Source: an uncultured Thermodesulfobacteriota bacterium (lineage in GTDB: Bacteria > Desulfobacterota > Deferrisomatia > Deferrisomatales > JACRMM01). Taken from it: a stretch of DNA of 26,875 bases. The notes beneath the pieces are model-generated. The model was not told the origin of the DNA. It did not search any database and worked only from the letters and a program-made list of their open reading frames with translations. The stretch covers positions 1-26,875 of the forward strand of contig CAZYJP010000001.1 of NCBI GenBank assembly GCA_964647795.1, read 5' to 3'. Made by a program: the position numbers and the translations under genes. Below are positions 4,889 through 19,693 of the stretch, in pieces; positions within the stretch are counted from its first letter, which is position 1; each line of letters opens with the position of its first letter.

Positions 4889-5833
4889 GTGATCGCTGCG
4901 TCGTTCCTGACCTTGGGGGGGGTGCTGCTGCTGTACGGTGGGGCGGAGGCCCTGGTTCGAGGCAGTGCCGCCCTGGCGCTGCGGCTGGGACTCTCCCCCC
5001 TCCTCATCGGCCTGACGGTCGTGGCCTTCGGCACCAGCAGCCCCGAGCTTGCGGTCAGCGTGCGCGCCTCCCTGGCGGGCCAGGGGGACATCGCCCTGGG
5101 CAACGTGGTGGGTTCCAACATCGCAAACGTGGCCCTCGTCCTCGGTGTCTGCGCCCTCGTGTGCCCGCTGCGGGTCAATGCCCAGGTGGTTCGCTGGGAT
5201 GCTCCGATCCTGCTCGGCTGTTCGGTGCTCCTGGTGGCCCTGCTGGCGGACGGGGTGTTGAGCCGCTCGGAAGGGGCAGCGCTCTTCGCAGGGGTCTTCG
5301 GCTATACGGCGCTGAGTGTCCTCTTGGCCCGGCGAGAGGCATCCCCCTCGGTCCAGGGCGAGTTTGCGGAAGGCCTACCCGCCGCCCCCCGCCGCCTGTG
5401 GGCCGAGGTCTTCCTGGTGTCGGCCGGTCTGGGACTGCTGGTGTTGGGGGGGCAACTCCTGGTCTCGGGCGCGGTCACGGTTGCCCGAGGGTTGGGGCTG
5501 ACCGAGGCCTTCATCGGGCTGACGGTCGTCGCGGTGGGGACGAGCCTTCCCGAGCTTGCCACCTCGGTTGTGGCCGCGGGGCGAGGCGAGGCGGACCTGG
5601 CGGTGGGCAACGTGGTGGGTTCGAACATCTTCAACGTGCTGTGCGTATCGGGTCTGGCGTCCCTCATCCACCCTCTGGCGTCGGCGGGAGTGACCCGGTT
5701 CGACCTCTGGGTGATGGTCGCCTCCGCTGCCGCAGTTCTCCCGGTGGTCTGGACCGGTTATCGGGTGAGCCGCATCGAGGGGACTTTGCTGACCCTCGGC
5801 TACTGCGGCTACTTGGGATGGCTGCTCGCGTGA
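4889..5833 (+). CDS. Calcium/sodium antiporter (YrbG-like, CaCA family)
   Basis: Two alpha repeats, GTSSPEL...GNVVGSNIAN and GTSLPEL...GNVVGSNIFN; about 10 TMs. Start placed at GTG 4889 after AGGAGG (4872-4877). Confidence 0.9.
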   Translation: MIAASFLTLGGVLLLYGGAEALVRGSAALALRLGLSPLLIGLTVVAFGTSSPELAVSVRASLAGQGDIALGNVVGSNIANVALVLGVCALVCPLRVNAQVVRWDAPILLGCSVLLVALLADGVLSRSEGAALFAGVFGYTALSVLLARREASPSVQGEFAEGLPAAPRRLWAEVFLVSAGLGLLVLGGQLLVSGAVTVARGLGLTEAFIGLTVVAVGTSLPELATSVVAAGRGEADLAVGNVVGSNIFNVLCVSGLASLIHPLASAGVTRFDLWVMVASAAAVLPVVWTGYRVSRIEGTLLTLGYCGYLGWLLA

Positions 5834-5973: not shown

Positions 5974-6567
5974 GTGGGAAGCGTTGATTGGAGTCGGAGG
6001 GCCTTTCTGGCCGCAGGAGCGTCTGCCCTGGTTTCAGCCGGTCCCGGTTGGGCGCGCTGCGTTGCGACGCCGAAAAACGTGGAAGGCCCCTTCTATCTGC
6101 CCGGTGCACCGTTTCGGGCTGAGCTCGCCCCGGAAGGGGAACCCGGGGACCGCCTCACGATCCGGGGCCGGGTACTGGGTTCGGCCGAGTGTGAGCCGCT
6201 CCCGGGGGCGATGGTGGACGTGTGGCACGCGAGCGCGGAGGGTTTCTACTACGACATGGAAGGGCCGACGGACCCGGAAGCCTATGCGCTGCGGGGGCGC
6301 GTGCGCACCGACGAAGGGGGCAGGTACTCCTTCACCACCATCCTCCCGGGTCATTACCGCCTCACCCGAACGCGGTGGCGCCCCCGACACATCCACTACC
6401 GGGTGTCCCACCCCCGGCATCGGACCCTGGTTACTCAGCTCTATTTTGCGGGGGATCCCCACCTCTCGGGAGACCCATTCGCGTTGCCGTCCCTCGTCGT
6501 TTCTCTTTCCGAGGCGCCGGGAGGGGGGCTGCAGGGCGCGTTCGACGTGGTCTTGGACCGGGACTGA
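5974..6567 (+). CDS. Intradiol ring-cleavage dioxygenase-like protein with twin-arginine signal
   Basis: SRRAFL Tat motif; EGPFY, VDVWHASAEGFY, TILPGHY, RPRHIH (Tyr/Tyr/His/His iron ligands); GTG 5974 preceded by AAAGGAG. Confidence 0.85.
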   Translation: MGSVDWSRRAFLAAGASALVSAGPGWARCVATPKNVEGPFYLPGAPFRAELAPEGEPGDRLTIRGRVLGSAECEPLPGAMVDVWHASAEGFYYDMEGPTDPEAYALRGRVRTDEGGRYSFTTILPGHYRLTRTRWRPRHIHYRVSHPRHRTLVTQLYFAGDPHLSGDPFALPSLVVSLSEAPGGGLQGAFDVVLDRD

Positions 6568-6582
6568 GACCTGGGGGACGCC

Positions 6583-7716
6583 ATGGGAACCCGAGAGCCG
6601 CGCCGGAGGGGCCGTGCCCCCGAGTGTCTTCGCCCGTCGCAGGAGCTCCACGAGCTCGTGCTCAGCAACATTTCGGATGCTGTCTTCATTACCGACGAGG
6701 CCGGGAGATTCACGTACATCTGCCCCAACGTCCACAACATCTTCGGGCGCTCTTTCGACGAGGTGACGTCCATGGGAAGCATTCAGGGGCTCCTGGGCGA
6801 CTTCACCTTCGACCGGGCGCGGCTGGAGGTCGAGGGCGAACTGGAGAATCTGGAACGGAGGGTCCGGGACAAAGCCGGCACCGAACATGTCCTGCTGGTC
6901 AACGTGAAGCGGGTGCGAATCGAGGACGGCACCTTGCTCTTCAGCTGCCGCGACGCGACCGAGCGCAAGAAGATGGAAGAGGCCCTGAGCCGGAGCGAGA
7001 GCCGGCTGCGCGAGTTGGGGCGCCAACTGGTCTCCGCTCAGGAGGAAGAACGGGCGCGCGTTTCTCGGGAGCTCCACGACGAGGCCGGTCAGTCCCTTAC
7101 CGCGCTCAAGATCCACCTGGAGCTGCTCCAGGGGGAACTGCCCGCCGGCGCTCGGGAGTTGGAGGCTCGATTGCGCGATGCGGTGGCCTTGGTGGAGTCC
7201 ACGGTGGACCGGGTCCGCTCCCTGGCCCAGGACCTGCGCCCCCCTTCCCTCGACACCCTGGGGCTCAACCGCACACTCGAGGGGTTTTGCCGGACATTCG
7301 GGGGCCGAACACACCTTCCCGTCGAGTACCGGGGTATGGAGTTTCCACCCCTGCGCGATGCCTCCCAGGTCTGCCTCTACCGTTTTCTCCAGGAGGCGCT
7401 CACCAACGCGGTGAAGCACGCCCGCGCGACCCGGGTCCGGGTCCGGTTGGATTGCCGTGCCGGGAAGGCACGCCTGGCCGTCGAAGACGACGGGGTGGGG
7501 TTCGATGTCGCCACTATTCTCGGCGACCAGGGGAGCAGAGGGGGGCTCGGCCTGGCCGGCATGCGGGAACGTTTGGATTTGCTCGACGGGCACCTGGAGA
7601 TCCGTTCGGCCCCGGGGCTGGGGACGTCCATGGTCGCCGTGGTTCCGGCGGAAGGGGCACCTCCCTCCCGCGAGGCTGGAAAGAAAGCCCGGGCAGGACA
7701 GGAGGGGCGGTCATGA
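6583..7716 (+). CDS. Cytoplasmic PAS sensor histidine kinase (HisKA_3, NarX/UhpB type)
   Basis: PAS-like N-terminus, EEERARVSRELHDEAGQ H-box, QEALTNAVKHA, EDDGVGF, GLGLAGMRER; no TM segment seen. Confidence 0.92.
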   Translation: MGTREPRRRGRAPECLRPSQELHELVLSNISDAVFITDEAGRFTYICPNVHNIFGRSFDEVTSMGSIQGLLGDFTFDRARLEVEGELENLERRVRDKAGTEHVLLVNVKRVRIEDGTLLFSCRDATERKKMEEALSRSESRLRELGRQLVSAQEEERARVSRELHDEAGQSLTALKIHLELLQGELPAGARELEARLRDAVALVESTVDRVRSLAQDLRPPSLDTLGLNRTLEGFCRTFGGRTHLPVEYRGMEFPPLRDASQVCLYRFLQEALTNAVKHARATRVRVRLDCRAGKARLAVEDDGVGFDVATILGDQGSRGGLGLAGMRERLDLLDGHLEIRSAPGLGTSMVAVVPAEGAPPSREAGKKARAGQEGRS

Positions 7717-8366
7717 TCCGCGTCATCGTAGCGGACGATCACCATCTGGTCCGCCAGGGGATTTGCGCGCTCCTCGAAAAGGCGCCGGACATGGAGGTGG
7801 TGGGCGAGGCGGAGGATGGGATCGCTGCCCTGGAATTGGTGCGCCGCACTCCCCCCGACATCCTCGTGGTCGACCTGGCCATGCCGCGGATGAACGGTAT
7901 TCAGACCATCGAACGGGTGCAGGCGCTGGGCGGGCGAACCCGGGTCGTGGTGCTCTCCATGTACTCGGACGAGACACTGGTGCGACAGGCCATCCGGACC
8001 GGCGCCGCGGGCTACCTGCTGAAGCGCTCGGTAACCGAGGAGCTCCTCCTGGCGGTGCGGGCGGCGGCTCGGGGAGAGACCTATCTGAGTCCCTCGGTTT
8101 CCCGGGTTCTGGTGGACGCCGTGCGGGGGGAGTCTGTCGAGCCCAAGGGGCAGATGCCGCTGGACCGCCTCACTCCTCGCGAGAGGCAGGTGCTGCAGTT
8201 GGTGGCCGAAGGGCGCTCGAACGGCGAGATCGGTCGGACACTGGGGGTGACCAGGAAGACTGTGGAAAAACACCGGGCCAGCGTGGTGGCGAAACTGGGG
8301 GTGAAGGATCTGGCCGGCCTGATCCGCATCGCTCTCAAGCAGGGACTGATCTTTCTAGAAGAGTAG
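7713..8366 (+). CDS. NarL/LuxR-family response regulator
   Basis: ADDHHLVRQG, VVDLAMPRMNG, GYLLK, LTPRERQVL...TVEKHRASVVAKL HTH; ATGA overlap with the kinase stop. Confidence 0.94.
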   Translation: MIRVIVADDHHLVRQGICALLEKAPDMEVVGEAEDGIAALELVRRTPPDILVVDLAMPRMNGIQTIERVQALGGRTRVVVLSMYSDETLVRQAIRTGAAGYLLKRSVTEELLLAVRAAARGETYLSPSVSRVLVDAVRGESVEPKGQMPLDRLTPRERQVLQLVAEGRSNGEIGRTLGVTRKTVEKHRASVVAKLGVKDLAGLIRIALKQGLIFLEE

Positions 8367-8422
8367 GGCAGTTCTGCGGCGGATGGTCGGCATGCCCCCA
8401 GAGATATGGTAGGGTAAGATTC

Positions 8423-8452
8423 TTGAAACAGTAGTGATTGCCCCCATATCTT
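8423..8452 (+). promoter_or_regulatory. Possible sigma70 promoter of the glutamate-synthase-family gene
   Basis: TTGAAA (8423-8428), 18 nt spacer, TATCTT (8447-8452) in an AT-richer intergenic patch. Confidence 0.35.
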
Positions 8453-11366: not shown

Positions 11367-11525
11367 GCACCCCGGATGGCTTCCAGGCGCAGGGAGACCA
11401 CCCCGCACTTCCCCGCCTCCCATCCCGCCCGCCTGCTTCTGGACAGTTCTCAAGAAACCCCCGGCACCGGCCGATGGAGGGGAGGGGGTGCCCCTCCAAC
11501 CGTCGTCCACCTGCGAGGAAAGCTG

Positions 11526-12065
11526 ATGGCCCTGGAAGGAACCCTCAACTACATGGACGTCTCTCACCTGCTCGAGGTGGTCGGGATCTCGGGGAAATCC
11601 GGAGTTCTCTCCATCCATTGGGAAGAGCGAACGGCTCGCCTCATCTTCCAGCAGGGGCGGCTTCTGCGCGCTGAGTCCAACCGCATCCGTGACGGCATCG
11701 GGGCACTCCTGGAACAGGCAGGCATCCTGACTGCCGAGTCTTTGGCCCAAGCCTTGGAGATCCAAAAGGCCGAGGGCGGAACGCGGCGCCTGGGAGGCAT
11801 TCTGTGTGATGACTTCGCCGTGGACCCCGCGGACATCGAGAAGGTGCTCCTGGAGCAGTCGAAACAGATTGTCTACGACGTCTTTTCCTGGCCGGGGGGG
11901 CGCTTCACGTTCACATTCCAGGCGCCGGGGGAGGCGCTGGACCGGTTCCACCACAATGCGCTGGAATTCATCCACGATGTGGGGATCGAGGCGGGGTTTC
12001 TCGCGAGAGAGGGGGTCGCCAGGGAACTGGGGACCCGGACACGGGGAAGATCGCCTGCCGGCTGA
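11526..12065 (+). CDS. DUF4388 (PatA_N-like) domain protein with tandem MshEN-like motifs
   Basis: MALEGTL..MDVSHLLEVV...KSGVL, F..GRL..A, IVYDVFSWPGGRFTF pattern. Start set to ATG 11526 instead of 11376. Confidence 0.8.
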   Translation: MALEGTLNYMDVSHLLEVVGISGKSGVLSIHWEERTARLIFQQGRLLRAESNRIRDGIGALLEQAGILTAESLAQALEIQKAEGGTRRLGGILCDDFAVDPADIEKVLLEQSKQIVYDVFSWPGGRFTFTFQAPGEALDRFHHNALEFIHDVGIEAGFLAREGVARELGTRTRGRSPAG

Positions 12066-15556: not shown

Positions 15557-16903
15557 ATGAGTGGCCTGCGTCTGAACATCGCGAACAAGCTTTTCTTGGG
15601 TTATCTCCCGCTCTTGCTGCTGACCGCCCTGATCGCTTCGTTCGCTCTTCTCAGCCTCACGCGTCTCAACCGGATCACCGACAGCATCGTCCAGGTAGAC
15701 GTCCCCCTGGTGGAGGCTGTGGATCAGTTGGTGGAGAATCTCCTGGCGCAGGACTCCTACGGCCGGCGCTACCTCCTCCTGCGGGATCCCGAGTTGGAAG
15801 AGGTCTTCCGCCAACGAAGCGGCGGGTTTCGCAGTCAATTGGTTAGATTCCGAGAGATACGGGGTTGGGAAGACCCGTGGGTAACACGGGTGGAAGGGCT
15901 CCACCGGCAGTACGAGGACCTCTTCGAGGAGGGGTTTGCCCGCTCCGGGGAGCTCAGTCCAGAGGAGAACCGCACGCTGCGAGGTCAGCACGCTGAAATC
16001 CTGGAGACTCTTCGCCAGGAGTCGAGCGCACTCCGGCGTGCCAGAAACCTGAAGACCCTGCAGACCGGCGAAATTGGGGAGCGGGCCTTCCATGTCACCG
16101 TTATTCTGTTTCTCCTGGGTGCCGCGGTAGCCGGGGGAACTGCCCTGATCATCTCCCGGGGAATCACGGTGGCCGTGCACCGGCTCCAGACCGCCGCCGG
16201 TGAGATCTCGGAGGGACGCTTCGACCGGGTACCGGAACTGGACACGGGGGACGAGATCGGAGATCTCGCCCGGGCCTTTGCGGCCATGTCTTCCCGGCTC
16301 CAGAGGATGGAGCAGACCTGCCTGGATGCGAGTCCCCTGACCCGCCTTCCGGGGGGGGAAGCGATCGAGGATGCTCTTCATCAGCGGATCGAACGAGGGG
16401 ACCCCGTGGCTTTTTGTCTGTTCGATCTGGACAACTTCAAGGCCTACAGCGACAAGTACGGCTACGCCCGAGGCAGCGGCGTGATCAAGTCGGTGGGGCG
16501 GATTCTGGAGAAGACGGTGGAGCAGGCGGGAAAGCCGGAGGATTTCATCGGGCACATCGGGGGAGACGACTTTGTCCTCCTCACGGCCCGAGAGCGGTGC
16601 CGGAGCTTGTGCAACGAGGTGATCCGACGCTTCGACGCGGCGGTGCCGGGGTTCTATGATGAGGAGGATCGATCGCGGGGGTTCATCCGGGGGAAGAGCC
16701 GCCAGGGGGAATCCGCCACGTTTCCCCTTCTTTCCCTTTCGATCGCCGTGGTAACGGAAACGGACCTGGTATACCGCGACCCCATTTCCATCGGCGAAGC
16801 GGCAGCCCGGCTGAAGGAATCCGCCAAGGAAATCCCCGGGAGCGTGACCGTGATCGACGTAGAATCCCTTCCCGGGAGTTTGCCTCCCAGGACGGCGTCA
16901 TGA
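15557..16903 (+). CDS. Membrane sensor with HAMP and GGDEF-like domain (GGDDF)
   Basis: Two TMs flanking a roughly 140-aa helical periplasmic region; HAMP (GDEIGDLARAFAAM); DLDNFK...GHIGGDDF...SLSIAV. Confidence 0.9.
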   Translation: MSGLRLNIANKLFLGYLPLLLLTALIASFALLSLTRLNRITDSIVQVDVPLVEAVDQLVENLLAQDSYGRRYLLLRDPELEEVFRQRSGGFRSQLVRFREIRGWEDPWVTRVEGLHRQYEDLFEEGFARSGELSPEENRTLRGQHAEILETLRQESSALRRARNLKTLQTGEIGERAFHVTVILFLLGAAVAGGTALIISRGITVAVHRLQTAAGEISEGRFDRVPELDTGDEIGDLARAFAAMSSRLQRMEQTCLDASPLTRLPGGEAIEDALHQRIERGDPVAFCLFDLDNFKAYSDKYGYARGSGVIKSVGRILEKTVEQAGKPEDFIGHIGGDDFVLLTARERCRSLCNEVIRRFDAAVPGFYDEEDRSRGFIRGKSRQGESATFPLLSLSIAVVTETDLVYRDPISIGEAAARLKESAKEIPGSVTVIDVESLPGSLPPRTAS

Positions 16904-17574
16904 GGAGCTCAGGGTTTGTTGTCGCGGTCCTGGTGATCGGAGCGTGCGCGTGTACCTCCTTGAGCCCTGCCGGCCGCCTCTATGAGACGTATGCGCGGAT
17001 CGACGGGGGAAAGGTTGCCGGGGAGATCGAGCGCTGGGAGGGCGTGGCCCAGGATGCGCCGGACGGCGCGCTTCGCGCCGGGGCACACTTGCGGCTGGCT
17101 CTGCTCCTGTCCCACCCCGAGCATCCGGAACCCGACTATCGGAGGGCGTTGGAAGAACTGGAGCGCTATCGGTCCCTGGATCCCCGAGGCGCTCGGGACC
17201 TGGAGTTACGTCGACTCCTGGGGGTTCTCTCGGACCTGCGCCGCTGCGAGCTCCAGGAGGAGCGGAGGGGGGATTTGGTGGAGTTCCTGTGGAAGGAGGA
17301 ACAAGACGTTCGGCGACGCCTCGAGGAACTGCGGCAAGACAGTCGGGGGGTGGACGGGCTCCTGGACGTGGTGCTGGAACGGGAGCGCGCCCTGGGGCGG
17401 CAGAATCAGGAGCTCATCCGGGAGCACGAGGAAATCGCGGAGCAGCTTCGGGAGTTGGAGTCGGGCACCCGGACGCTGGAAGCGGAGAACCGGGAATTGA
17501 AGGAAACCCTGGAGCGCCTCAAGAACCTGGACCTCCAACTGGAACGGATGCGATCCGGGGATCCGCCCCGTTGA
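16900..17574 (+). CDS. Putative lipoprotein, helical/TPR-like N-half and long C-terminal coiled coil
   Basis: Signal peptide with lipobox-like VIGA-C16; heptad-rich C-half ending LKETLERLKNLDLQLERMR; ATGA overlap with the GGDEF gene. Confidence 0.75.
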   Translation: MRSSGFVVAVLVIGACACTSLSPAGRLYETYARIDGGKVAGEIERWEGVAQDAPDGALRAGAHLRLALLLSHPEHPEPDYRRALEELERYRSLDPRGARDLELRRLLGVLSDLRRCELQEERRGDLVEFLWKEEQDVRRRLEELRQDSRGVDGLLDVVLERERALGRQNQELIREHEEIAEQLRELESGTRTLEAENRELKETLERLKNLDLQLERMRSGDPPR

Positions 17575-17832: not shown

Positions 17833-18114
17833 ATGCGCTCGTTTCTCGGCTATTTCGGTCTGGAAACCGGAGAGAAGGCCTGGGATGTCCTGTGCTGGGC
17901 GGCACCCTACCTTCTCCTCCTCGGGACCGCGCTGTTGGGGCTCTCTTTCGGCGTCCAGTGGCTTTTCCCGCTTCCCTTGTGGGTGCACGGGGCAGCGGTC
18001 CTTTTGGCCCTGTTCTATTTTTTCCTGTTTCTGGCGCGCATGCGCCGAAGTGTCGAAGACTCGGACCCGGACGAGGGAGCCGATGCAGGTCCTCCCCCCG
18101 ATGTCCGTGCCTAG
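17833..18114 (+). CDS. Hypothetical small membrane protein (2 TM, acidic tail)
   Basis: Two clear hydrophobic segments, purine-rich upstream sequence, co-oriented with the downstream cluster. Confidence 0.65.
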   Translation: MRSFLGYFGLETGEKAWDVLCWAAPYLLLLGTALLGLSFGVQWLFPLPLWVHGAAVLLALFYFFLFLARMRRSVEDSDPDEGADAGPPPDVRA

Positions 18115-18202
18115 GTGACGGGGGCGAAGCCCCCCAGGTCCCCTCACCCGAGTTATGCCCTTTGAATCGGGTCAGCCTGCAGCGGCACAGCCCGGAGAGA
18201 CC

Positions 18203-19693
18203 ATGGACGTTCGGGAAGAACTGAGCATCCTCATCCGTTCCCGACAGCCTCTCATCTCCCTGGTGACCGGGGAGGAGGAACGGGCGCGCGATCTCCTGCG
18301 GGAACTGGCCGAGGAGCTGGGAAACCGGGAGCTCTTCTTCTGGAACGCCGTGACCGGGTTTCGGAAGGTGGGGAGCGGGGGAAATCCGCTGGAGGAGGGG
18401 CGAATGGACCCACTCACTGCCCTTCAGCGGCTCGAGGCATACCGGGGAGAGGCCCTCTTCGTACTGGAGGACTTCCACCCCTTCTTCGAAGAGCCGGTGG
18501 TGGTGCGGATGCTTCGCAACCTCCTCTATTCCCTGCGGTCTGCCCGGAAGACCGCGGTCCTCATCAGCCACAACTTCAAGCTCCCGGCTGAGTTCCGCGA
18601 AGACGTACCCCAGGTTTTCTTGCCACTACCCGACTACGAGGCCCTTCGGGAGCTTCTCCACGGAGTCTGCGAGGGCAGGGACGTGAAGGTGGATCTGACC
18701 TCGGAGGGAGAGGAGAAATTGGTCAAGTCCGCGTTGGGACTCACCGAGAATCAGGCCCGCGGAGTGTTCGTCAAGTCGATCCTCAAGCACCAAGACCTCA
18801 ACCAGTCGGCGATCGGCCTAGTGCTCTCGGAGAAGCAGAAGATCATAAAGAAGGACGAAGTGCTGGAATTCTTCCCCGCCCGTGAGAGGATTTCCGACAT
18901 TGGCGGTCTCGACAACCTCAAGGAATGGCTAAAGAAGCGAGACAAGGCCTTCAGCAGCCGCGCCAAGGACTACGGGCTCCCCAACCCCAAGGGGATCCTG
19001 ATCATCGGGGTTCAGGGTACGGGGAAGAGCCTGACGGCCAAGGCAACCTCGGCCCTGTGGCGCTTGCCTCTCCTGCGCATGGACATGGGCAAGGTGTTCG
19101 GCAGCCTCGTGGGGGAGTCGGAGGAACGCATCCGCAAGGCCCTCCTCCTGGCCGAGACCATCAGTCCCTGCATCTTGTGGATCGACGAGATCGAGAAGGG
19201 GTTTGCCAGCGTGGCCGGGAGCGGCGACTCCGGGACCTCGGCCCGGGTGTTCGGTACGTTCCTCACCTGGATGCAGGAAAAGGAAAAGCCCGTCTTCGTG
19301 ATCGCTACCGGCAACGATATCGCCAACCTTCCCCCGGAGCTCATGCGCAAGGGCCGCTTCGACGAGATCTTCTTCGTAGACCTCCCCACCTACGACGAGC
19401 GCATCGAGATCTTCCGCGTTCATCTGGCGCGGGTGCGGCCGGTGATCCGCAACTACGAGATCTCCTTCCTGGCCGGCGAGACCGAGGGGTTCAGCGGTGC
19501 CGAGATCGAGCAGGCGATCATCAATGCCATGTACAACGCTTTCGACGACGGGGAACGGGAGTTCACCACCGAAGACATCCGCAAGGGCGCGCGAGAGGTC
19601 ATCCCGATCGCCAAGCTGATGAGCGAACGGATCGAGAAATTGCGCGAGTGGGCGGCCGAGCGGACGCGTCGGGCCAACAAGGAAGCTCACTGA
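18203..19693 (+). CDS. Ycf46-family AAA+ ATPase
   Basis: N-terminus LIRSRQPL...EEERA; degenerate first domain (LEDFHPF, no Walker A); active domain [54 protein letters not shown] 18203 follows GGAGAG. Confidence 0.9.

What the first reader, a model, noticed from the sequence alone, without database searches (positions are those of the whole stretch)
16424..16573. GGDEF domain with Ser at the PleD-D344 specificity position: possible Hypr-type (3',3'-cGAMP) or otherwise re-specified cyclase
Seen: DLDNFKAYSDKYGYARGSGVIK aligns without gaps to PleD DIDFFKKINDTFGHDIGDEVLR, giving N335->S (16448-16450), H340->Y and D344->S (16475-16477). The active loop is GHIGGDDF and the I-site is KPED rather than RxxD. 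Known: D344->S/T is the signature of Hypr GGDEF enzymes such as Geobacter GacA, which make 3',3'-cGAMP. The extra N335->S change is not part of that signature, so the product could be cGAMP, another dinucleotide, or nothing. The TM-periplasmic-HAMP input differs from the receiver-domain input of GacA.
Basis: partly seen in the sequence, partly recalled or inferred. Interest (0 to 1): 0.7.

Follow-up and report, generated by a model that had tools for sequence, protein, structure and literature searches.

The report
Membrane sensor with GSU1937-type GGDDF cyclase
This gene encodes a membrane sensor whose unusual signalling-enzyme domain belongs to the same family as a Geobacter enzyme (GSU1937) reported to make the second messengers cGAMP and c-di-GMP, so it is a new member of a known family, differing by one extra serine at a base-contacting site.

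Summary
The 448-aa ORF at 15557-16903 (+) carries Ser298 and Ser307 at the PleD Asn335 and Asp344 positions, Tyr303 for His340, GHIGGDDF and KPED.

It is not a re-specified GacA-type enzyme. It belongs to a large, deeply separate "GGDDF" clade of GGDEF domains (signature GH[IV]GGDDF, an 18-residue hairpin insert, no NRR arginine). Its full-length TM-HAMP-GGDDF architecture matches Geobacter sulfurreducens GSU1937 (37% identity over 431 aa, E 5e-85). GSU1937 is published as a "second Hypr" enzyme giving cGAMP and c-di-GMP (PMC8835794).

In 430 clade domains the catalytic-type residues are almost invariant, so an active cyclase is likely. The Asp344 position is Ser (302), Asp (79) or Asn (49). 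The Asn335 position is Asn in 90%. It is replaced by Ser/Gly/Ala/Thr/Val only where the partner position is Ser (45 of 302 against 0 of 128), in at least six lineages. Ser298 is fixed in this genus.

The gene overlaps by 4 nt a conserved helical lipoprotein gene. This pairing holds in 89 of 97 orthologous loci, including GSU1937's.

The product was not tested, and no GEMM riboswitch was found in this genome. This scan has met the family several times on other DNA. Verdict: new member of a known kind, modest interest.

The parts
15557..16903 (+). Sensor cyclase gene, 448 aa: TM1, periplasmic helical domain, TM2, HAMP, GGDDF-type GGDEF domain
   Evidence: ORF. Pfam HAMP 199-249 (44 bits) and GGDEF 260-358 (48 bits, profile positions 5-105 of 161). 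Full-length orthologues at E down to 1e-200.
15590..15658 (+). Putative TM1 (residues about 12-34)
   Evidence: Hydrophobic run LFLGYLPLLLLTALIASFALLSL read by eye. No TM predictor was run.
15659..16084 (+). Putative periplasmic helical sensor domain (residues about 35-176), 4HB_MCP/CHASE3-like
   Evidence: Weak Pfam 4HB_MCP_1 hit on residues 6-82, E 2.9e-4, below the cut-off. Several orthologues carry precomputed PF12729 or PF05227 hits.
16085..16153 (+). Putative TM2 (residues about 177-199)
   Evidence: Hydrophobic run AFHVTVILFLLGAAVAGGTALII read by eye.
16151..16303 (+). HAMP domain (residues 199-249)
   Evidence: Pfam PF00672, 44.3 bits, E 2.3e-11.
16322..16858 (+). GGDDF-clade GGDEF (nucleotidyl cyclase palm) domain, residues about 256-434
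   Evidence: AlphaFold2 model of residues 250-440, pLDDT 92.9. Foldseek top hits are all diguanylate cyclase GGDEF domains, with query-normalised TM about 0.6-0.7 and target-normalised TM up to about 0.8. hhalign to canonical GGDEF gives 99.7% probability.
16355..16357 (+). Gly267, aligned with the first Arg of the canonical NRR motif (the cross-dimer, guanine-stacking Arg; Tyr in GacA)
   Evidence: hhalign. In the clade this position is N 261 / G 137 / S 24 and was not Arg in any of the counts shown. The role of the residue is from PMC6456294.
16448..16450 (+). Ser298 at the PleD Asn335 / GacA Asn339 (sugar-face) position
   Evidence: Clade census: N 385, S 28, G 8, A 4, T 4, V 1.
16475..16477 (+). 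Ser307 at the PleD Asp344 / GacA Ser348 (Watson-Crick-face) position
   Evidence: Clade census: S 302, D 79, N 49.
16553..16573 (+). His333-Ile-Gly-Gly-Asp-Asp-Phe: the GH[IV]GGDDF signature (His replaces the canonical Arg; the fourth position is Asp, not Glu)
   Evidence: H 429/430, G336 430/430, D337 430/430, D338 429/430.
16649..16702 (+). Clade-specific 18-residue beta-hairpin insertion (residues 365-382, GFYDEEDRSRGFIRGKSR), with near-invariant Tyr367, Gly375 and Arg382
   Evidence: Gap opposite canonical GGDEFs in hhalign. Strands at model residues 127-131 and 137-141. Conservation.
16900..17574 (+). Partner lipoprotein gene (224 aa): signal peptide plus lipobox Cys16, TPR-like helical hairpin, coiled coil, conserved C-terminal motif EN.EL...LE.LK.LDL.LE. 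It overlaps the cyclase stop codon by 4 nt (ATGA).
   Evidence: No Pfam family. Homologous downstream lipoprotein in 89 of 97 orthologous loci, including G. sulfurreducens and the same-genus genomes.

Best explanation
The gene encodes an inner-membrane sensor of the GSU1937 type. A periplasmic helical-bundle domain lies between two transmembrane helices and is followed by a HAMP domain. HAMP controls dimerisation or orientation of a C-terminal GGDDF-clade palm domain, which condenses two purine NTPs into a 3',3'-cyclic dinucleotide. Ser307 sits on the Watson-Crick face, Asp337 is the short central acid of the motif, and the guanine-stacking cross-dimer Arg is absent. The enzyme is therefore most likely promiscuous for ATP and GTP and makes c-di-GMP and/or 3',3'-cGAMP, as reported for the GSU1937 domain. 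Ser298 replaces the sugar-face Asn and removes the second base-specific contact. This probably relaxes or weakens base selection further and does not kill the enzyme. The translationally coupled lipoprotein is probably the periplasmic partner that delivers or modulates the envelope signal.

Shown here: family membership, conservation of catalytic-type residues, the fold, and the gene pairing. Inferred: enzymatic activity, the product, and the lipoprotein interaction.
For: (1) Full-length homology to the G. sulfurreducens PCA protein AAR35313.1 at AE017180.2:2118801-2120111: 37% identity over 431 aa, E 5e-85.

(2) That protein is GSU1937 by elimination. In the PCA genome (G088) only two GGDEF-family domains have Ser at this position. 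One is the REC-type GacA at 1.82 Mb and the other is this TM-HAMP-GGDDF protein. This matches the statement in PMC8835794.

(3) Published activity of GSU1937. Its deletion lowers a cGAMP riboswitch reporter by about 25% on fumarate and 70% on Fe(III) citrate. The GacA-REC::GSU1937-GGDDF fusion F4 gives cGAMP and c-di-GMP biosensor signals that the GADDF mutant abolishes.

(4) In 430 clade domains the catalytic-type residues are near-invariant: D290 429, K295 429, D299 429, H333 429, G336 430, D337 430, D338 429, R382 429, K420 424, K424 429.

(5) High-confidence GGDEF fold.

(6) The Goldilocks rule of PMC6456294 (Ser needs GGD.F, not GGE.F) is satisfied, and the cross-dimer Arg is replaced by Gly.

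(7) Non-Asn residues at position 298 recur in at least six lineages of the Ser-type subclade, with all other catalytic residues kept.

(8) The lipoprotein gene lies immediately downstream in 89 of 97 loci, usually with a 4-nt overlap.
Against: No biochemical data exist for any member that lacks the sugar-face Asn. GSU1937, GacA and the canonical cyclases compared here all have Asn. Wild-type GSU1937 and three of four fusions were inactive in E. coli, so the activity evidence for the clade is thin. The fourth motif residue is the general base Glu in canonical enzymes and is Asp here. The PleD Arg446 equivalent is missing. This genome shows no GEMM-I or GEMM-II riboswitch, while two Geobacterales genomes (G001, G007) give 18-20 GEMM-I hits with the same search. 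The known cGAMP effector class is therefore not evident, although the assembly is only 86% complete.
Confidence: 0.6

Rival explanations
1. It is an ordinary diguanylate cyclase. The GGDDF clade makes only c-di-GMP in vivo, and Ser307 and Ser298 are neutral lineage variation.
For: The basal members of the clade keep Asn plus Asp, the canonical guanine pair (79 of 430). The GSU1937 F4 fusion made c-di-GMP at a level comparable to GacA. Position 307 drifts between Ser and Asn among orthologues, and position 298 between N, S, G, A, T and V. The genome has seven canonical GGDEF domains and ten HD-GYP proteins, a normal c-di-GMP network.
Against: Asp at position 307 is absent from the whole derived subclade (98/95 support, 36 rows), which suggests a selected change and not drift. 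The guanine-favouring cross-dimer Arg is also gone. Deleting GSU1937 lowers a cGAMP-specific reporter in Geobacter.
Confidence: 0.2
2. It is a re-specified cyclase with a different product (c-di-AMP, a pyrimidine-containing or other dinucleotide, or a linear pppNpN), because both base-reading side chains (Asn335 and Asp344 equivalents) are now small Ser residues.
For: Ser298 plus Ser307 leaves no long hydrogen-bonding side chain on either base edge. Loss of Asn occurs only on the Ser background (45 of 302 against 0 of 128), which suggests the two sites are functionally coupled. Hypr enzymes already accept several purine NTPs. A clade-specific hairpin with invariant Arg382 and Tyr367 could supply new contacts.
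Against: The replacement is not one specific residue. It is any small residue (S, G, A, T, V), which looks like relaxed constraint and not a new specific contact. The sister genus in the same family has Asn with the same operon. The Goldilocks argument disfavours pyrimidines. There are no data.
Confidence: 0.1
3. It is a catalytically dead, degenerate GGDEF domain that acts as a nucleotide receptor or scaffold.
For: GGDDF departs from the accepted active motif [G/A/S]G[D/E]E[F/Y]. The GGDDF-EAL protein PA3258 is inactive as a cyclase. The Pfam score is low and partial (48 bits against 150-170 bits for canonical paralogues). Wild-type GSU1937 was inactive in E. coli.
Against: The metal-binding and phosphate-binding residues and the Gly-Gly turn are near-absolutely conserved across 430 domains from many phyla. 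There is no I-site for product binding. The F4 fusion is active and its GADDF mutant is dead.
Confidence: 0.05

Closest known systems
GSU1937 of Geobacter sulfurreducens PCA (AAR35313.1), the 'second Hypr GGDEF' with a GGDDF motif (PMC8835794)
   Same: Same architecture over the full length (TM, periplasmic helical domain, TM, HAMP, GGDDF domain): 37% identity over 431 aa, E 5e-85. Same GH[IV]GGDDF signature, Tyr for His340, Ser at the Watson-Crick-face position, no NRR Arg, and the same hairpin insert. Same 4-nt-overlapping downstream lipoprotein of one family.
   Different: GSU1937 keeps Asn at the sugar-face position (DLDNFKAFNDHYGYIKAS), while this protein has Ser298. GSU1937 has an HD-GYP/GAF histidine-kinase gene next downstream, and here an AAA ATPase follows. 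Two Geobacterales genomes searched here (G001, G007; not G. sulfurreducens itself) carry many GEMM-I riboswitches, and this genome shows none.
GacA (GSU1658 / Gmet_1914), the founding Hypr GGDEF cGAMP synthase (PMC6456294; T4-lysozyme fusion structure 6d9m)
   Same: Ser at the Watson-Crick-face position, Asp as the central motif residue (Goldilocks rule), a non-Arg cross-dimer residue, and the GGDEF fold.
   Different: A different clade. GacA sits inside the canonical GGDEFs, across a 100/100 split from the GGDDF clade. The two share only 35% identity over 80 aa. GacA has a REC input, GGDEF with the general-base Glu, Arg before the motif, and Asn339. This protein has a TM-HAMP input, GGDDF, His333 and Ser298.
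Canonical diguanylate cyclases (PleD, WspR, DgcZ, YfiN/TpbB)
   Same: Palm fold (query-normalised TM about 0.6-0.7, target-normalised up to about 0.8). Conserved Asp327, Lys332, Asp336 and Lys442 equivalents and the Gly-Gly turn.
   Different: The Asn335, Asp344, Arg366, Glu371 and Arg446 equivalents, the NRR Arg and the RxxD site are all changed. There is an 18-residue insertion. The Pfam model matches only its first 105 positions.
Lipoprotein-assisted envelope sensors (YfiB-YfiR-YfiN/TpbB; QseG-QseE). This comparison rests on general knowledge and was not tested here.
   Same: A membrane sensor with a periplasmic domain and a HAMP-type transmitter is co-encoded with a lipoprotein. In YfiBNR the output is also a GGDEF cyclase.
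   Different: No YfiR-like periplasmic repressor gene was seen in this operon. The lipoprotein has no Pfam family, so no OmpA/Pal-like domain was detected. It is a TPR-like and coiled-coil protein with its own conserved C-terminal motif. No sequence relation to YfiB or QseG was tested.

Membership tests
GGDEF superfamily (Pfam PF00990) | Match to the family profile above the curated cut-off | tested here: met
   48 bits against a cut-off of 23.8, but only profile positions 5-105 of 161. TIGR00254 gives 46.6 bits against 37.4.
GGDEF superfamily (Pfam PF00990) | GGDEF palm fold | tested here: met
   AF2 pLDDT 92.9. All top Foldseek PDB hits are GGDEF domains, E about 1e-10, target-normalised TM up to 0.81.
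Canonical diguanylate cyclase (PleD type) | Guanine-reading pair Asn335 and Asp344 | tested here: not met
   Ser298 and Ser307.
Canonical diguanylate cyclase (PleD type) | Motif [G/A/S]G[D/E]E[F/Y] with Glu at the fourth position (general base) | tested here: not met
   GGDDF. Asp338 is 429/430 in the clade.
Canonical diguanylate cyclase (PleD type) | Metal and phosphate ligands Asp327, Lys332, residue 370, Lys442, Arg446 | tested here: inconclusive
   D290, K295, D337 and K424 align and are near-invariant. The Arg446 equivalent is absent, and invariant K420 and R382 are possible substitutes.
Canonical diguanylate cyclase (PleD type) | RxxD inhibitory site five residues before the motif | tested here: not met
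   KPED here. The R position is variable in the clade.
Hypr GGDEF (GacA type) | Ser/Thr at the Watson-Crick-face position (GacA Ser348) | tested here: met
   Ser307.
Hypr GGDEF (GacA type) | Central Asp in the motif (Goldilocks rule: Ser requires GGD.F) | tested here: met
   Asp337, 430/430 in the clade.
Hypr GGDEF (GacA type) | Cross-dimer Arg of NRR replaced by another residue | tested here: met
   Gly267 aligns with that Arg. GacA has Tyr (LTGLFNYRY).
Hypr GGDEF (GacA type) | Sugar-face Asn (GacA Asn339) | tested here: not met
   Ser298.
Hypr GGDEF (GacA type) | Phylogenetic membership of the GacA clade | tested here: not met
   GacA-like domains (Geo L184, 57% identical to GacA; own C59 and C585) lie inside the canonical GGDEFs. 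This protein lies across a 100/100 split.
Hypr GGDEF (GacA type) | Production of 3',3'-cGAMP | not testable with these tools
   Needs enzyme assays.
GGDDF clade, GSU1937 type | GH[IV]GGDDF signature with His in place of Arg366 | tested here: met
   GHIGGDDF. Clade conservation.
GGDDF clade, GSU1937 type | Full-length homology and the same TM-HAMP-GGDDF architecture as GSU1937 | tested here: met
   BLASTP 37% over 431 aa, E 5e-85. Identity of the Geobacter protein with GSU1937 was inferred by elimination, because no tool showed the locus tag.
GGDDF clade, GSU1937 type | Placement in the derived Ser/Asn subclade of the GGDDF clade | tested here: met
   Inside the 98/95-supported subclade of 36 rows, together with the Geobacter orthologue L198.
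GGDDF clade, GSU1937 type | Translationally coupled downstream lipoprotein of one family | tested here: met
   4-nt overlap here, in G. sulfurreducens, and in 89 of 97 loci.
GGDDF clade, GSU1937 type | Asn at the sugar-face position, as in the characterised member | tested here: not met
   Ser298 here. Asn in 385 of 430 domains and in GSU1937.

The most novel reading that the evidence does not exclude
The Ser298/Ser307 pair (and the parallel Gly/Ser, Ala/Ser and Thr/Ser pairs elsewhere in the subclade) marks GGDDF cyclases that have given up both base-specific side-chain contacts. They would then make a product spectrum not yet described for GGDEF enzymes, for example mainly c-di-AMP or base-agnostic mixed dinucleotides. 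The clade-specific hairpin (Tyr367, Arg382) would take over nucleotide recognition. The strict coupling 'no Asn only if Ser' would then be a second specificity code layered on the Hypr code.
Probability: 0.12. Interest if true: 0.65.

Novelty: new member of a known kind. Interest (0 to 1): 0.3.

Why it matters
GGDEF enzymes are usually annotated wholesale as c-di-GMP synthases. The GGDDF clade is large (523 clusters at 50% identity with E below 1e-30), occurs in many phyla, and has been characterised only through one artificial fusion of GSU1937. This locus adds a soil Deferrisomatales-like lineage (closest named relative) to the Ser-type subclade. It also shows that the second base-contacting residue (Asn) is dispensable only on the Ser background. 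This gives a concrete, cheap mutational hypothesis (S298N, S307D, and the reverse change in GSU1937) about how base selection is encoded in these cyclases. The almost obligatory lipoprotein partner points to an envelope-sensing input for the whole TM-HAMP-GGDDF family, including GSU1937, whose activating signal is unknown. None of this is new in kind.

Tried and rejected
(1) Complex prediction of the periplasmic domain (residues 36-176, alignment A1) with the mature lipoprotein (residues 17-224, alignment A4) returned 'no answer' (score 0.00). It is evidence neither for nor against binding.

(2) The look-up of sequencing runs: no RNA holder was listed, so there is no evidence on expression. 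The DNA is held by soil metagenome runs of more than one study.

(3) A sigma-54 -24/-12 consensus search gave nothing near the start codon and fewer matches than shuffles.

(4) Routes to the G. sulfurreducens protein that failed: two pattern scans of genome contigs did not list it. The locus from the look-up of encoding contigs was not accepted as a genome handle. The PNAS 2016 Hypr paper is not held, and the supplement of PMC8835794 has no sequence. The protein was finally reached through the search for homologous proteins and a search of the order.

(5) GEMM-I and GEMM-II searches of the own genome were blank. The named controls were uninformative for GEMM-I, so two Geobacterales genomes served as positive controls.

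(6) The idea that R263 (LTRLPG) is the cross-dimer Arg, from gapless counting of 44 residues back from Ser307, was rejected. The profile-profile alignment puts the 4-residue deletion after helix alpha0 and aligns Gly267 with that Arg. A loop residue reaching the site cannot be excluded.

Full report
**The observation.** The finding lies in a 448-aa ORF at 15557..16903 on the + strand. Two independent alignments place DLDNFKAYSDKYGYARGS on the canonical DxDxFKxxNDxxGHxxGD without gaps. One is phmmer against solved diguanylate cyclases. The other is a profile-profile comparison of 72 relatives with 29 canonical GGDEF domains (hhalign probability 99.7%, E 1.2e-25). The PleD equivalents Asn335, His340 and Asp344 are therefore Ser298, Tyr303 and Ser307. 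The PleD reference residues are as listed in PMC6629876. The gapless register holds only locally. Relative to canonical domains there is a 4-residue deletion after helix alpha0, a 4-residue insertion before the motif strand, and an 18-residue insertion (residues 365-382) after it.

**What the protein is.** Pfam finds HAMP (199-249) and only the first two thirds of GGDEF (48 bits, profile positions 5-105 of 161), plus a sub-threshold 4HB_MCP hit at the N-terminus. Two hydrophobic runs (residues about 12-34 and 177-199, read by eye) bracket a helical domain of about 140 residues. The architecture is therefore TM, periplasmic bundle, TM, HAMP, divergent GGDEF. An AlphaFold2 model of residues 250-440 is confident (pLDDT 92.9). 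Its best matches in the PDB are all GGDEF domains. The extra residues form a beta-hairpin.

**The family.** Full-length relatives are abundant (3649 proteins at E of 1e-3 or better among the candidates scored). They occur in Deferrisomatales, Nitrospirota, Thermodesulfovibrionia, Desulfobacterales, Syntrophales and Geobacteraceae. The domain alone finds 523 clusters (50% identity) at E below 1e-30, behind many different N-termini such as REC-sized, HAMP and long multidomain forms.

An HMM-guided census of 430 such domains shows a sharply defined clade signature. GH[IV]GGDDF is nearly fixed (His 429, Gly336 430, Asp337 430, Asp338 429). So are D290, K295, D299, Y301, R382, K420 and K424 (all at least 422 of 430). 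The motif LTRLPG[NG] replaces the canonical LTGLxNRR.

In a maximum-likelihood tree this clade is separated by a 100/100 branch from all canonical domains. The tree used the 8 motif-bearing GGDEF domains of this genome, 24 from a Geobacter genome, and 55 clade representatives. The canonical side includes the GacA-like Ser-bearing ones. The genome carries nine GGDEF matches. Seven are canonical (92-171 bits), one is a second GGDDF protein with Asn and Asp, and one is this protein.

**The known relative.** A literature search for 'GGDDF' led to PMC8835794. Geobacter sulfurreducens GSU1937 is described there as having transmembrane HAMP domains, the diagnostic Ser and a GGDDF motif, with many deltaproteobacterial homologues. 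Its deletion lowers a cGAMP riboswitch reporter, most strongly on Fe(III) citrate. One fusion of its GGDDF domain to the GacA receiver gives both cGAMP and c-di-GMP biosensor signals, and a GADDF mutation abolishes them.

I located the G. sulfurreducens PCA orthologue (AAR35313.1; AE017180.2:2118801-2120111). It aligns with the window protein over 431 residues (37% identity, E 5e-85). No tool showed the locus tag, so I tested the identity by elimination. The genome that holds this protein at 100% identity at the same coordinates (G088) has 30 GGDEF matches. Only two of them have Ser at the Watson-Crick-face position. One is a REC protein at 1.82 Mb with LTGLFNYRY and RYGGDEF, which is GacA. 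The other is this TM-HAMP-GGDDF protein. This is exactly what the paper states for GacA and GSU1937. The window protein is therefore a GSU1937-family member. To GacA it has only 35% identity over 80 residues.

**The two specificity positions in context.** Across the 430 domains, position 307 is Ser 302, Asp 79 and Asn 49. Position 298 is Asn 385, Ser 28, Gly 8, Ala 4, Thr 4 and Val 1. On the tree the basal GGDDF lineages keep Asn and Asp. A derived subclade (98/95 support, 36 rows, mostly TM-HAMP proteins and including the Geobacter orthologue) has only Ser or Asn at position 307.

Every one of the 45 domains without Asn at position 298 has Ser at position 307. None of the 128 Asp-type or Asn-type domains lacks Asn. 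The raw Fisher p of 5e-8 overstates the case because kin are not independent. On the tree, however, the losses fall in at least six separate lineages.

In this genus Ser298 is fixed. Both same-genus genomes have it, as do the metagenomic relatives examined at 65-95% identity. A sister genus of the same family has Asn and Ser, and more distant relatives have Asn/Asn or Gly/Ser. So the 'extra' N335->S is real and lineage-fixed. It is nevertheless one instance of a recurrent relaxation at that site, and the replacing residue is simply small.

**Other Hypr criteria.** PMC6456294 gives three features beyond the Ser. First, a central Asp in the motif, the Goldilocks rule, is met here by Asp337. Second, the guanine-stacking cross-dimer Arg of NRR is replaced. 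This is met, because Gly267 aligns with it, and the clade has N, G or S there and no Arg in the counts shown. Third, the sugar-face Asn339 is not met. The general-base Glu is Asp, as in GSU1937. There is no conserved RxxD site.

**The surroundings.** The stop codon overlaps (ATGA) the start of a 224-aa ORF at 16900..17574. This ORF has a signal peptide, a lipobox Cys, a TPR-like hairpin, a coiled coil and a conserved C-terminal motif. A homologous lipoprotein gene sits immediately downstream in 89 of 97 loci that carry a full-length TM-HAMP-GGDDF gene, mostly with the same 4-nt overlap. These include G. sulfurreducens and the same-genus genomes. The HMM was built from a subset of the same loci, and kin are not independent. 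A structure-based test of binding gave no verdict (listed under Tried and rejected).

Upstream, an RlmL-type THUMP methyltransferase is transcribed divergently, and recR lies beyond it. Downstream lie a small membrane ORF and an AAA ATPase. None is obviously related to the cyclase.

**The signalling network of the genome.** The assembly (601 contigs, 86% complete) has ten HD-GYP proteins. It also has a canonical GacA-like Ser-GGDEF domain on contig C59 and a GacA-like domain with Gly at that site on C585. It shows no GEMM-I or GEMM-II riboswitch. The same GEMM-I search finds 18-20 copies in each of two Geobacterales genomes (G001, G007). If cGAMP is made here, its receptors are not of the Geobacter riboswitch kind, or they lie in the unassembled part.

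**Mechanism and verdict.** The most likely reading (0.6) is an envelope-signal-controlled, dimerisation-dependent cyclic-dinucleotide synthase of the GSU1937 type. It would be promiscuous for purine NTPs and would make c-di-GMP and/or 3',3'-cGAMP. Ser298 would further loosen base reading, and the lipoprotein would be its periplasmic partner.

Family membership, fold, residue conservation and gene pairing are shown. Activity, product and partner binding are inferred. The rivals are a plain diguanylate cyclase (0.2), a new product spectrum (0.1) and a dead domain (0.05).

The kind is already described, and this scan has met it repeatedly on other DNA. What remains specific to this locus is the Ser/Ser active-site pair, which is untested in any enzyme. 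I rate it a new member of a known kind, of modest interest.

Noticed in passing
Own genome G000, contig C59 (GGDEF domain at 5353-5823, + strand; 931-aa open frame): A canonical GGDEF domain with the classical Hypr signature (DLDHFKDVNDTHGHLVGS ... RYGGDEF). It is 44% identical to the G. sulfurreducens GacA domain and pairs with a Geobacter Ser-bearing (NS-type) GGDEF domain, Geo L190, inside the GacA-like group of the tree. The organism may therefore have a GacA-type cGAMP synthase as well.
   Followed up: partly
Own genome G000, contig C585 (919-1392, - strand; ORF cut by the contig end): A GacA-like GGDEF domain (43% identical to GacA) with Gly, not Ser or Asp, at the Watson-Crick-face position (GHLCGG ... 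RYGGDEF).
   Followed up: no
Own genome G000, contig C31 (10522-10806, + strand; 756-aa open frame): A second GGDDF-clade protein in the same genome, with the canonical Asn and Asp pair (DLDHFKSFNDRYGFTRGD ... GHIGGDDF) and a long, different N-terminus.
   Followed up: partly
430 GGDDF-clade domains: Loss of the sugar-face Asn (to S, G, A, T or V) is seen only when the Watson-Crick-face residue is Ser (45 of 302 against 0 of 128), in at least six tree lineages. This is a possible coupling between the two sites and no published model addresses it.
   Followed up: partly
L199 (G. sulfurreducens PCA AE017180.2:2114801-2124111), gene at locus positions 6077-8440: In G. sulfurreducens the GSU1937 and lipoprotein pair is followed by a 787-aa GAF/HisKA/GAF/HD-GYP protein. 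This is a candidate cyclic-dinucleotide phosphodiesterase next to the synthase, and it is absent from the window.
   Followed up: no
L207 (G024:C282:29914-31221): The same-order orthologue (Gly/Ser type, GGDDY) has one in-frame TGA. It may be a pseudogene, a sequencing error or recoding.
   Followed up: no
window 17833-18114 (+) and 18155-19693 (+): A 93-aa hydrophobic ORF with no Pfam family lies just before a 512-aa AAA+ ATPase (AAA and AAA_lid_3), downstream of the lipoprotein gene. Any relation to the cyclase operon is unknown.
   Followed up: no
window 11376-12065 (+) and 6583-7716 (+): A DUF4388 protein and a HisKA_3/HATPase histidine kinase are further signalling genes in the window.
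   Followed up: no
P0324 (Geotalea daltonii FRC-32, ACM20736.1): The GenBank name of this orthologue is 'nucleotide cyclase, HAMP and GGDEF-related domain-containing'. Annotators had already flagged the domain as GGDEF-related and not as a plain GGDEF.
   Followed up: no
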